From the IMG/VR virus record IMGVR_UViG_2526164598_000014: a DNA stretch of 49,244 nt; one strand, given 5' to 3'. The DNA is from a virus (taxonomy: Duplodnaviria > Heunggongvirae > Uroviricota > Caudoviricetes). A program made the translations under genes and the position numbers. A model generated the notes under the pieces. That model had not been told where the DNA came from. It saw nothing but the letters and a program-made list of their open reading frames with translations, and did no database searches. Below are positions 4,977-31,404 of this stretch, piece by piece (the stretch's first letter is position 1; each line of letters begins with the position of its first letter).

Positions 4977-5228
4977 TCACGCTGCTCGTTGAGTTTTGAT
5001 TTTTGCTGTCTCCAGCTCAACACGCAGTTTCCTCACCGTTAGCGCAATATCCTCGTTCTCCTGGTCGCGGCGTTTGATGTACTGCTGGTTTCTTTCCCGT
5101 TCATCCAGCAGTGTCAGCACAATCGATGGTGTTACCAGCTCATGGAAAAGGTCCGCGTCAAATCCCCAGTTGTCATGCATTGCCTGCTCTGCCGCTTCAC
5201 GCAGTGCCTGAGAGTGAATTACGCTCAC
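4977..5228 (-). CDS. Hypothetical early-left (ea region) protein, 83 aa
   Basis: ORF in leftward pL operon, 4-nt overlap with upstream TraR-like gene. Confidence 0.55.
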   Translation of the reverse strand: MSVIHSQALREAAEQAMHDNWGFDADLFHELVTPSIVLTLLDERERNQQYIKRRDQENEDIALTVRKLRVELETAKIKTQRAA

Positions 5229-5446: not shown

Positions 5447-5544
5447 CTTTCATTAATCCCTGAATTGTTGGTTAATACGCTTGAGGGTGAATGCGAATAA
5501 TAAAAAAGGAGCCTGTAGCTCCCTGATGATTTTGCTTTTCATGT

Positions 5545-5760
5545 TCACCGTTCCTTAAAAACGCCGTTTAACATGCCGATTGCTAGGCTTAAATGAGTCG
5601 GTGTGAATCCCATCAGCGTTACCGTTTCGCGGTGCTTCTTCAGTACGCTACGGCAAATGTCATCGACGTTTTTATCCGGAAACTGCTGTCTGGCTTTTTT
5701 GATTTCAGAATTAGCCTGACGGGCAATGCTGCGAAGGGCGTTTTCCTGCTGAGGTGTCAC
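5545..5760 (-). CDS. Hypothetical protein, about 71 aa from GTG start (ORF track gives 5545-5826)
   Basis: GTG at 5758-5760 overlaps the TGA of the upstream 27-codon ORF (GTGA); the longer 93-aa reading from 5826 overlaps that ORF out of frame. Confidence 0.4.
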   Translation of the reverse strand: MTPQQENALRSIARQANSEIKKARQQFPDKNVDDICRSVLKKHRETVTLMGFTPTHLSLAIGMLNGVFKER

Positions 5761-5840
5761 TGAACAAGCCCCATGTCGGCAAGCATAAGCACACAGAATA
5801 TGAAGCCCGCTGCCAGAAAAATGCATTCAGTGGTTGTCAT
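5757..5840 (-). CDS. Small hydrophobic peptide, 27 aa (MTTTECIFLAAGFIFCVLMLADMGLVQ)
   Basis: ATG at 5838-5840 overlaps stop of upstream 63-aa gene (ATGA), stop overlaps GTG of downstream ORF; single predicted TM helix. Confidence 0.3.
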   Translation of the reverse strand: MTTTECIFLAAGFIFCVLMLADMGLVQ

Positions 5841-6028
5841 ACCTGGTCTCTCTCATCTGCTTCTGCTTTCGCCACCATCATTTCCAGTTTTTGTGAAAGG
5901 GATGTGGCTAACGTATGAAATTCTTCGTCTGTTTCTACTGGTATTGGCACAAACCTGATTCCAATTTGAGCAAGGCTATGTGCCATCTCGATACTCGTTC
6001 TTAACTCAACAGGAGATGCTTTGTGCAT
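5837..6028 (-). CDS. Small early-left protein, 63 aa (lambda orf63-like by position)
   Basis: ORF directly downstream of exo side in pL operon; assignment by position and size only. Confidence 0.5.
   Translation of the reverse strand: MHKASPVELRTSIEMAHSLAQIGIRFVPIPVETDEEFHTLATSLSQKLEMMVAKAEADERDQV

Positions 6029-27723: not shown

Positions 27724-31404
<3,681 letters not shown>

What the first reader, a model, noticed from the sequence alone, without database searches (positions are those of the whole stretch)
5757..6028. Translationally coupled chain including a 27-aa hydrophobic peptide
Three consecutive leftward ORFs are linked by overlapping stop/start tetranucleotides: the 63-aa gene stop overlaps the ATG of a 27-codon ORF (ATGA at 5837-5840), whose stop overlaps the GTG of the next ORF (GTGA at 5757-5760). 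The 27-aa product is a single predicted membrane helix with a short polar N-terminus, the architecture of small membrane toxins and modulators. The ORF track misses it because of its size.
Basis: seen in the sequence. Interest (0 to 1): 0.35.

Follow-up and report, generated by a model that had tools for sequence, protein, structure and literature searches.

The report
Overlooked 27-codon gene in lambda's exo-xis block
Between two small early genes of a lambda-type prophage lies an unannotated 27-codon gene for a very hydrophobic peptide; it is conserved at the protein level, is present in phage lambda itself, and means that lambda's published "orf61" was read in the wrong frame.

Summary
A 27-codon ORF (5757-5840, minus strand) starts on the stop of orf63 (ATGA) and ends on the start of the next gene (GTGA).

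The window is the exo-xis block of a lambdoid prophage, about 98.5% identical to phage lambda. It matches E. coli ATCC 8739 exactly over the 201 bases compared.

Across 104 distinct haplotypes, older variants in the small ORF are 11 synonymous to 3 non-synonymous in its own frame (P=5e-5). The signal is as strong as in neighbouring orf61 and orf73, and absent in the other two sense frames.

The ATGA overlap survives replacement of the upstream gene, and that junction then carries a GGAGG ribosome-binding site.

The downstream gene starts at the 71-aa position, not the published 93-aa or lambda 61-aa reading. Those readings run out of frame across the small ORF.

Curated phage and RefSeq records leave a 76-nt gap here. 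A few GenBank genomes list the peptide as "hypothetical protein".

Membrane insertion rests on hydropathy alone: a 16-residue core and no basic residue. Toxin or modulator activity is untested, and type I toxin architecture is absent.

Published "orf61" mutations hit this ORF. I judge it a new member of a known kind, of moderate interest.

The parts
5837..6028 (-). orf63 (63 aa, DUF1382), the upstream gene of the chain
   Evidence: Pfam PF07131, E=3e-31. It equals lambda orf63.
5837..5840 (-). ATGA overlap: the orf63 stop TGA shares bases with the small-ORF start ATG
   Evidence: Read directly in the sequence. The overlap is kept in all 27 distinct orf63-type upstream variants, in the methyltransferase context and in the E1V33 context.
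5757..5840 (-). 27-codon small ORF encoding MTTTECIFLAAGFIFCVLMLADMGLVQ (in lambda: complement 30925..31008)
   Evidence: Synonymous to non-synonymous is 11:3 in its own frame, P=5e-5. It is intact in 260 of 263 loci. The exact sequence is in public protein collections only as 'hypothetical protein'.
5778..5825 (-). Codons 6-21: the uninterrupted apolar core CIFLAAGFIFCVLMLA
   Evidence: Hydropathy calculation.
5757..5760 (-). GTGA overlap: the small-ORF stop shares bases with the orf61 start. GTG here is the minor allele; most relatives have ATG.
   Evidence: Allele counts are A 243 and G 20. The change is synonymous (Q27) in the small ORF.
5545..5760 (-). orf61 in its 71-aa form, a three-helix protein and the downstream gene of the chain
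   Evidence: RefSeq and CPT annotate this form. In a context without the small ORF it starts at the same codon (MTIEHNN...) behind a GAGG. AlphaFold model pLDDT is 87.8. Synonymous to non-synonymous is 17:9.
5761..5826 (-). The 22-codon 'N-terminal extension' of the published 93-aa reading, out of frame over the small ORF; not a conserved coding frame
   Evidence: In this frame the counts are 2-3 synonymous to 7-9 non-synonymous. The extension is absent in context C. No purine-rich Shine-Dalgarno motif is seen before this ATG when the sequence is read directly.
5695..5700 (-). A6 run; laboratory lambda has A7 here, which frameshifts the true orf61
   Evidence: Alignment. The insertion occurs in lambda, its hybrids and lambda-contaminant contigs, plus 3 further viral-contig loci whose origin was not checked. 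RefSeq labels such a copy 'frameshifted'.
5453..5548 (-). 31-codon ORF that starts by GTGA on the orf61 stop; the next link of the chain
   Evidence: CPT annotates a 29-aa version. A review reports a 31-aa peptide from ribosome profiling in this block. Amino-acid constraint is not significant.

Best explanation
The 27-codon ORF is a genuine, overlooked early gene of lambda-type phages.

Expression. It lies in the leftward early operon downstream of exo. In the common arrangement it has no good ribosome-binding site of its own. It is most likely translated by ribosomes that terminate at the orf63 UGA and restart on the overlapping AUG (AUGA). Ribosomes terminating at its own UGA then restart on the overlapping AUG/GUG of the 71-aa orf61.

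Product. The peptide has a short polar head (MTTTE) followed by a 16-residue apolar helix. I infer that it partitions into the inner membrane and acts as a small accessory peptide on a host or phage membrane component, biasing development towards lysis. I do not think it acts as a lytic toxin.

Shown here: the ORF and its overlaps; frame-specific purifying selection; co-inheritance with orf61; the true start of orf61.

Inferred: that it is translated, by reinitiation; that it inserts in the membrane; what its target is.
For: (1) Purifying selection. Among alleles seen on at least 2 distinct haplotypes, the small ORF has 11 synonymous and 3 non-synonymous changes in its own frame (expected synonymous fraction 0.25; P=5e-5; omega about 0.09). 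The other two sense frames give 2:11 each. Ten of the 13 variable sites are third codon positions (P=0.0016). Controls run the same way give orf61 17:9 and orf73 20:10 (20:8 for alleles in 3 or more loci), with no excess in their off-frames.

(2) Mosaic junction. In 22-26 loci orf63 is replaced by a 185-aa N6-adenine methyltransferase. Homology resumes at the small ORF's ATG, the ATGA overlap is rebuilt, and GGGAGG lies 4 nt upstream. A third upstream gene (Escherichia sp. E1V33) ends in the same GGAGGCGGC-ATGACAA.

(3) The ATGA overlap is kept although the last codons of orf63 vary.

(4) The overlapping readings are not conserved. A TGA interrupts lambda's orf61 frame in 98 of 266 loci. The 93-aa extension has 2-3 synonymous to 7-9 non-synonymous changes. 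orf61 starts at the 71-aa codon, behind its own GAGG, where the small ORF is absent.

(5) The mRNA here is less folded than shuffled controls (z=+1.8) and matches no Rfam family.

(6) Published genetics. The lambda 'orf61' frameshift mutant deletes the C of GTG[C]TT, which is codon 18 of the small ORF, and it delayed phage development after induction (PMC4195576). The delta-orf61 deletions also remove the small ORF (PMC6213356, with coordinates).

(7) In laboratory lambda the 71-aa gene is already frameshifted. The small ORF is therefore the only evolutionarily conserved intact reading frame hit by those lambda mutations.
Against: I could not reach any direct evidence of translation; the lambda ribosome-profiling paper is not held. 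A review citing it lists only 7-aa and 31-aa new peptides in this block.

Divergence is low (at least 92% nucleotide identity), so the selection test rests on 14 alleles. The family is confined to Escherichia prophages, and no distant homologue was found.

orf61 exists without the peptide in 12-13 loci. One genome destroys the small ORF by a 14-nt deletion. The peptide is therefore dispensable.

The apolar core is short for a membrane span, and there are no basic flanking residues.

In the orf63 context the Shine-Dalgarno match is poor. The region is non-essential for plaque formation.
Confidence: 0.65

Rival explanations
1. Coupling bridge only. The small ORF is translated, but its sole role is to carry ribosomes from the orf63 stop to the orf61 start; the peptide itself has no function.
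For: There are stop/start overlaps at both ends. orf61 has only a weak GGG(G/A) about 10 nt upstream of its start. Where the small ORF is absent, orf61 has its own GAGG. The whole operon is built from such overlaps.
Against: A pure spacer should tolerate amino-acid change. Instead, the variable sites are spread along the whole ORF and are synonymous 11:3. The extreme hydrophobicity (2 of 410 short ORFs match it) would be unexplained. A bridge could be far shorter than 27 codons.
Confidence: 0.17
2. The published long readings are the real genes (93-aa Orf61 of phi24B/933W, or 61-aa lambda orf61), and the 27-codon ORF is an untranslated by-product in another frame.
For: This is the annotation used in the literature and in PHROG 303 and 26061. 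In Escherichia sp. E1V33 an ATGA-coupled ATG runs straight into a 93-aa frame.
Against: The extension frame shows no synonymous excess (2-3:7-9). Lambda's start lies upstream of a TGA in 37% of loci. orf61 begins at the 71-aa codon in an independent context. RefSeq and CPT choose the 71-aa form. The 71-aa protein folds confidently on its own, and published models had to discard residues 1-23. The E1V33 case is the small ORF's own ATG fused to orf61 by a 14-nt deletion.
Confidence: 0.05
3. The peptide is a type I-like membrane toxin (in the manner of Ibs, ShoB or DinQ) that damages the host membrane when expressed.
For: Its size and hydrophobicity resemble those toxins (the comparison is from general knowledge). 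Overexpression of 'orf61' constructs was reported as problematic, giving insoluble aggregates (PMC6213356).
Against: It is embedded in a polycistronic operon by overlapping codons and is not a separate unit. No promoter-like site on the opposite strand overlaps it, and there is no Rfam antitoxin or sRNA match. It lacks the basic residues typical of those toxins. It sits in more than half of complete E. coli genomes within repressed prophages.
Confidence: 0.1
4. The third-position periodicity comes from a gene on the opposite strand: the 61-aa ORF at 5773-5958 (+), whose third codon positions coincide with those of the small ORF.
For: Inside the small-ORF region that antisense frame also shows a synonymous excess (9:5, P=0.0017).
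Against: Outside the small ORF the same antisense frame has 2 synonymous to 10 non-synonymous changes. Its ATG is lost by the C66T allele, which is carried on at least 3 haplotypes. It is cut by the mosaic junction in the methyltransferase context. No plus-strand promoter-like site lies upstream of it.
Confidence: 0.02

Closest known systems
Small single-helix inner-membrane proteins of E. coli (e.g. AcrZ, MgtS, KdpF, CydX, PmrR) that modulate larger membrane proteins (general knowledge; not tested here)
   Same: Under 50 residues, dominated by one apolar helix, routinely missed by gene callers, and conserved at the amino-acid level.
   Different: There is no sequence similarity to any Pfam, NCBIfam or PHROG family. 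The peptide has no Lys or Arg and a net charge of -2, with an apolar core of only 16 residues. It is phage-borne, and its translation is tied to its neighbours by overlapping stop/start codons. Membrane location and target are unknown.
Type I toxin peptides (IbsC 19 aa, ShoB 26 aa, DinQ 27 aa, TisB 29 aa; general knowledge)
   Same: Similar length and hydrophobic character.
   Different: No antisense RNA partner, no promoter or leader of its own, and no basic residues. It lies inside an operon.
Other small host-directed products of the lambda pL operon (Kil, 47 aa; CIII, 54 aa; general knowledge, listed)
   Same: Small, non-essential early pL genes that tune the lysis-lysogeny outcome.
   Different: Those are soluble or amphipathic and experimentally characterised. 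This peptide is almost wholly apolar, uncharacterised, and absent from the curated lambda gene list.
Lambda orf61 / phi24B vb_24B_7c as published (PMC6213356, PMC8614690)
   Same: Same DNA. The published ORFs overlap 70-84 nt of the small ORF.
   Different: They use a different reading frame over this stretch. Lambda's 61-aa product is a chimera: an out-of-frame stretch, then 22 true Orf61 residues, then a 7-residue frameshift tail. The conserved units are the 27-aa peptide plus a 71-aa protein.

Membership tests
Small single-pass membrane proteins (50 aa or fewer) | Short ORF with conserved start, stop and length | tested here: met
   An ATG start and 27 codons are kept in 260 of 263 loci.
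Small single-pass membrane proteins (50 aa or fewer) | Amino-acid sequence under purifying selection | tested here: met
   Synonymous to non-synonymous is 11:3, P=5e-5, and only in this frame.
Small single-pass membrane proteins (50 aa or fewer) | Apolar segment long enough to span a bilayer (about 18-21 residues) | tested here: inconclusive
   The uninterrupted core is 16 residues, with a summed insertion free energy of -3.5 kcal/mol over 15 residues. Windows of 19-21 residues come out near 0 because of D22. No dedicated transmembrane predictor was available.
Small single-pass membrane proteins (50 aa or fewer) | Basic residues flanking the helix (positive-inside rule) | tested here: not met
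   There is no Lys or Arg; E5 and D22 flank the core.
Small single-pass membrane proteins (50 aa or fewer) | Demonstrated translation and membrane localisation | not testable with these tools
   The ribosome-profiling paper is not held, and the peptide sequence appears in no searchable paper.
Type I toxin-antitoxin | Antisense or overlapping RNA antitoxin with its own promoter | tested here: not met
   No plus-strand promoter-like site overlaps 5757-5840 and there is no Rfam match. The consensus scan is weak evidence.
Type I toxin-antitoxin | Independent transcription unit with its own leader | tested here: not met
   The start and stop overlap the neighbouring genes' stop and start in every context examined.
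Type I toxin-antitoxin | Toxicity on expression | not testable with these tools
   This needs an experiment.
Translationally coupled (termination-reinitiation) gene pairs | Overlapping stop and start (NUGA) at the junctions, conserved across variants | tested here: met
   ATGA is present in all upstream variants and in three different upstream genes. (A/G)TGA at the downstream junction varies only A/G at its first base; the TGA is unchanged in all clean assemblies.
Translationally coupled (termination-reinitiation) gene pairs | Downstream translation depends on upstream translation | not testable with these tools
   This needs reporter fusions with upstream nonsense mutations.
Published Orf61 (93-aa or 61-aa reading; PHROG 303 / 26061) | The N-terminal extension is a conserved coding frame present wherever orf61 occurs | tested here: not met
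   The extension frame has 2-3 synonymous to 7-9 non-synonymous changes. The extension is absent in context C. A TGA lies upstream of the 93-aa ATG in 37% of loci.
ZapA (NCBI's name for the downstream 71-aa gene) | Match to the ZapA profile above threshold, or a ZapA-like fold | tested here: not met
   Pfam ZapA scores 16.2 bits against a cut-off of 23.8. There is no NCBIfam hit. No ZapA appears among the PDB fold matches, and none has E below 1.

The most novel reading that the evidence does not exclude
The 27-residue peptide, rather than 'Orf61', may cause the pro-lytic phenotypes assigned to lambda orf61: delayed induction when frameshifted, and more lysogens and survivors when deleted. It would act from the inner membrane on a host factor of the lysis-lysogeny decision. 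The FtsH/HflKC protease system that controls CII and CIII is the obvious candidate. That would add a new, membrane-embedded player to the best-studied genetic switch in biology.
Probability: 0.15. Interest if true: 0.75.

Novelty: new member of a known kind. Interest (0 to 1): 0.5.

Why it matters
Lambda is the reference temperate phage, and the exo-xis block influences induction of Shiga-toxin prophages.

If the conserved units here are a 27-aa apolar peptide plus a 71-aa protein, several published results were obtained on a mis-framed ORF and need re-reading. These include the orf61 deletions, the 1-bp frameshift mutant, the two-hybrid interactions, the insoluble overexpression products and the structure models.

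In laboratory lambda the 71-aa gene is broken, so the peptide is the only conserved intact ORF hit by those mutations.

The module sits in about 59% of complete E. coli genomes. The peptide is therefore one of the commonest unannotated small genes in that species, and it is easy to test.

Tried and rejected
I used tblastn against phage records and an exact-sequence look-up instead.
- The lambda ribosome-profiling paper and a lambda review are not held, so no direct translation data could be read.
- The apparently divergent Orf61 hits (51-52% identity: P0069, P0075) turned out to be indel-ridden assemblies, not real divergence.
- P0036 has an insertion between orf63 and orf61, and P0023 is a prophage remnant next to host genes. 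Neither is informative.
- More divergent orf63 homologues (75-80% identity) are followed directly by ea22-type genes, with no peptide or orf61. They therefore give no test.
- The scan of one genome per species returned mostly lambda contamination in unrelated taxa.
- Rfam and RNA folding gave nothing.
- The fold search for the 71-aa neighbour gave no significant match.
- I considered an antisense-gene explanation for the codon periodicity and rejected it.
- I considered a holin role and dropped it, because the gene is in the early recombination/exo-xis block and not in a lysis cassette.

Full report
**Observation.** On the minus strand the 63-aa gene ends ...CAG GTA TGA. The A of GTA plus the TG of TGA form the ATG of a 27-codon ORF (5840 down to 5757), so the two genes share ATGA at 5840-5837. 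The small ORF ends ...GTT CAG TGA, and GTG overlaps that stop (GTGA at 5760-5757). That GTG opens a 71-codon frame ending at 5545. The same frame also has an ATG at 5826, which gives a 93-aa reading.

**What the region is.** The neighbours are a 226-aa exonuclease and a 261-aa Bet protein, followed by DUF1317, DUF1382, a TraR/DksA zinc-finger protein and an Ea22-like protein. The stretch is 98.5% identical to phage lambda's exo-xis block (orf60a, orf63, orf61, orf73, ea22). A 201-nt query around the ORF matches E. coli ATCC 8739 exactly and occurs in 3,211 of 5,426 complete E. coli genomes.

**How the stretch has been annotated.**
- Lambda's reference lists orf61 as 61 aa (30839..31024), starting inside orf63.
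- Phi24B lists a 93-aa vb_24B_7c, and the exo-xis literature uses these two readings.
- RefSeq's pipeline and the CPT annotations of phages 21 and 434 instead call a 71-aa gene, leaving 76 nt unannotated between it and orf63.
- The alignment with lambda shows why the readings differ. Lambda has A7 where the window has A6 (5695-5700), which frameshifts the gene. Lambda's '61-aa' product is therefore an out-of-frame stretch, then 22 residues of the real protein, then a 7-residue tail.
- RefSeq labels one such copy 'frameshifted'. In my sample the extra A occurs in lambda, its laboratory hybrids and lambda contaminant contigs, plus 3 further viral-contig loci whose origin I did not check.
- The 27-aa ORF is present and identical in lambda (complement 30925..31008).

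**Where orf61 starts.** In 12-13 viral contigs the gene follows a different 250-aa gene, with no small ORF in between. There it begins MTIEHNNALRSIARQ..., at exactly the codon that overlaps the small ORF's stop elsewhere, and it is preceded by GAGG. The start codon is ATG in 243 loci and GTG in 20; the change is silent in the small ORF. The 22-codon 'extension' of the 93-aa reading has 2-3 synonymous to 7-9 non-synonymous variants in its own frame. A TGA lies just before its ATG in 98 of 266 loci, which rules out lambda's upstream start there. The 71-aa form folds as a confident three-helix unit (pLDDT 87.8). Published models had to discard residues 1-23. The downstream gene is therefore the 71-aa form.

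**Whether the small ORF is a gene.** I collected 297 related loci and reduced them to 104 distinct haplotypes.
- Counting each allele once, and only if carried by at least 2 haplotypes, the small ORF has 11 synonymous and 3 non-synonymous changes in its own frame. The expected synonymous fraction is 0.25, giving P=5e-5 and omega about 0.09. The other two sense frames give 2:11 each.
- Ten of the 13 variable sites are third codon positions (P=0.0016).
- The same procedure gives 17:9 for orf61 and 20:10 for orf73 (20:8 for alleles in 3 or more loci), which serve as positive controls, and no excess in their off-frames.
- One antisense frame necessarily shares third positions with the small ORF and shows 9:5 inside it. 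The 61-aa antisense ORF in that frame shows 2:10 outside the small ORF, and a common allele removes its ATG. It is not a gene.

**Mosaic evidence.** In 22-26 loci orf63 is replaced by a 185-aa N6-adenine methyltransferase. Homology to the window resumes at the small ORF's ATG. The methyltransferase stop again forms ATGA with it, and the junction reads GGGAGGCTGC-ATGA, which places a good Shine-Dalgarno motif in front of the small ORF. A third upstream gene, in Escherichia sp. E1V33, ends CGGAGGCGGC-ATGACAA. There a 14-nt deletion just after the start fuses that ATG to the orf61 frame and destroys the peptide. Within the orf63 context the last codons of orf63 vary, but ATGA is always kept. The small ORF was never seen without orf61; the apparent exceptions lie at contig ends. 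The peptide and orf61 therefore travel as one module. The peptide is dispensable, however, since orf61 occurs without it and one lineage has lost it.

**The peptide.** It has a polar head (MTTTE), an uninterrupted apolar core C6-A21, then D22 and MGLVQ. GRAVY is 1.62. It has two acidic residues, no basic residue and two conserved cysteines. Only 2 of 410 short ORFs in the window are as hydrophobic. A simple insertion-energy sum favours membrane partitioning for the 15-residue core and is about neutral for 19-21 residues. It matches no Pfam, PHROG or NCBIfam family. tblastn finds only relatives at 92% identity or more in E. coli phages. The exact sequence is in public collections as 'hypothetical protein' from a few GenBank genomes and one UniRef entry, on about 981 contigs. 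It appears in no searchable paper.

**Other readings tested.** No Rfam family matches, and the RNA folds less well than shuffled controls. No promoter-like site on the opposite strand overlaps the ORF. Together with the overlapping stop/start codons, this argues against a type I toxin-antitoxin unit.

**Link to published genetics.** The 'orf61 frameshift' used on the multicopy lambda exo-xis plasmid deletes the C in CTGTGTG[C]TTATGC, which is codon L18 of the small ORF. It delayed phage development after mitomycin C or peroxide induction (PMC4195576). The delta-orf61 deletions of lambda and phi24B replace the annotated ORFs (PMC6213356). From the annotated coordinates, they remove the whole small ORF in lambda and all but its first 14 nt in phi24B. 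Because lambda's 71-aa gene is already broken, the peptide is the only conserved intact ORF affected by the lambda mutations. Polar or coupling effects on downstream genes cannot be excluded.

**Most likely mechanism.** The gene is transcribed early from pL as part of a chain of overlapping genes: exo/orf60a, orf63/peptide, peptide/orf61, orf61/31-aa ORF and orf73/ea22. The peptide is translated by termination-reinitiation at AUGA, or from the GGAGG site where a different gene lies upstream. Ribosomes are then handed on to orf61 at (A/G)UGA. The peptide would partition into the inner membrane as a single short helix and act as an accessory, pro-lytic modulator. Only the gene structure, the selection and the linkage are shown here. 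Translation, location and target are inferred.

**Verdict.** This is a real and previously overlooked small gene, a new member of the known class of small hydrophobic phage and bacterial peptides. It also corrects the reading of lambda orf61. Interest is moderate: it is not a new kind of system, but it lies in the most studied phage, it changes how a body of published work should be read, and it is directly testable.

Noticed in passing
window 5695-5700 (lambda about 30866-30872): Laboratory lambda and its derivatives (DE3, HK630, imm21/imm434 hybrids) carry A7 where this window and wild prophages carry A6. This frameshifts the true 71-aa orf61. The curated lambda 'orf61' is therefore a frameshift chimera.
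   Followed up: yes
window 5453-5548 (-): A 31-codon ORF starts by GTGA on the orf61 stop and contains a terminator-like hairpin (5506-5524). A review says ribosome profiling found a 31-aa peptide in this block. Amino-acid constraint is not significant (4 synonymous to 6 non-synonymous).
   Followed up: partly
window 5837-6028 (-), orf63: orf63 shows no excess of synonymous variation (8:15 to 15:34), although Orf63 is an experimentally studied protein with an NMR structure. Selection may be relaxed or diversifying, or recombination between alleles may blur the signal.
   Followed up: no
proteins P0078, P0081, P0085, P0087, P0089, P0097 (junction at window 5837-5860): Rare 89-aa database proteins are in-frame fusions of Orf63 to the 27-aa peptide, created by small deletions in or near the GAGAGAGA tract just before the ATGA. 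They may be sequencing errors or natural variants that tail-anchor Orf63.
   Followed up: no
L082 367-924; L299 347-904: In some prophages orf63 is replaced by a 185-aa DNA N6-adenine methyltransferase whose stop overlaps the peptide's start. In others a 250-aa gene (beginning MIHFHGGPITPD...) directly precedes orf61, with no peptide.
   Followed up: partly
L102-L115 (genome contigs): Lambda-identical contigs, some about 48 kb, sit inside assemblies labelled Shewanella, Pseudomonas, Bradyrhizobium, Kitasatospora, Oceanobacillus and others. A GenBank 'Campylobacter phage CJLB-4' record is also essentially lambda. These look like laboratory lambda DNA contamination.
   Followed up: no
window 5545-5760 (-): NCBI names the 71-aa protein 'cell division protein ZapA'. 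The Pfam ZapA score is below threshold (16.2 against 23.8 bits), and the confident three-helix model has no significant PDB fold match. The name appears unsupported.
   Followed up: yes
window 4977-5228 (-): The Ea22-like gene here is only 83 aa, and RefSeq marks the matching ATCC 8739 copy as frameshifted and partial. The prophage is probably decayed to the left of orf73.
   Followed up: no
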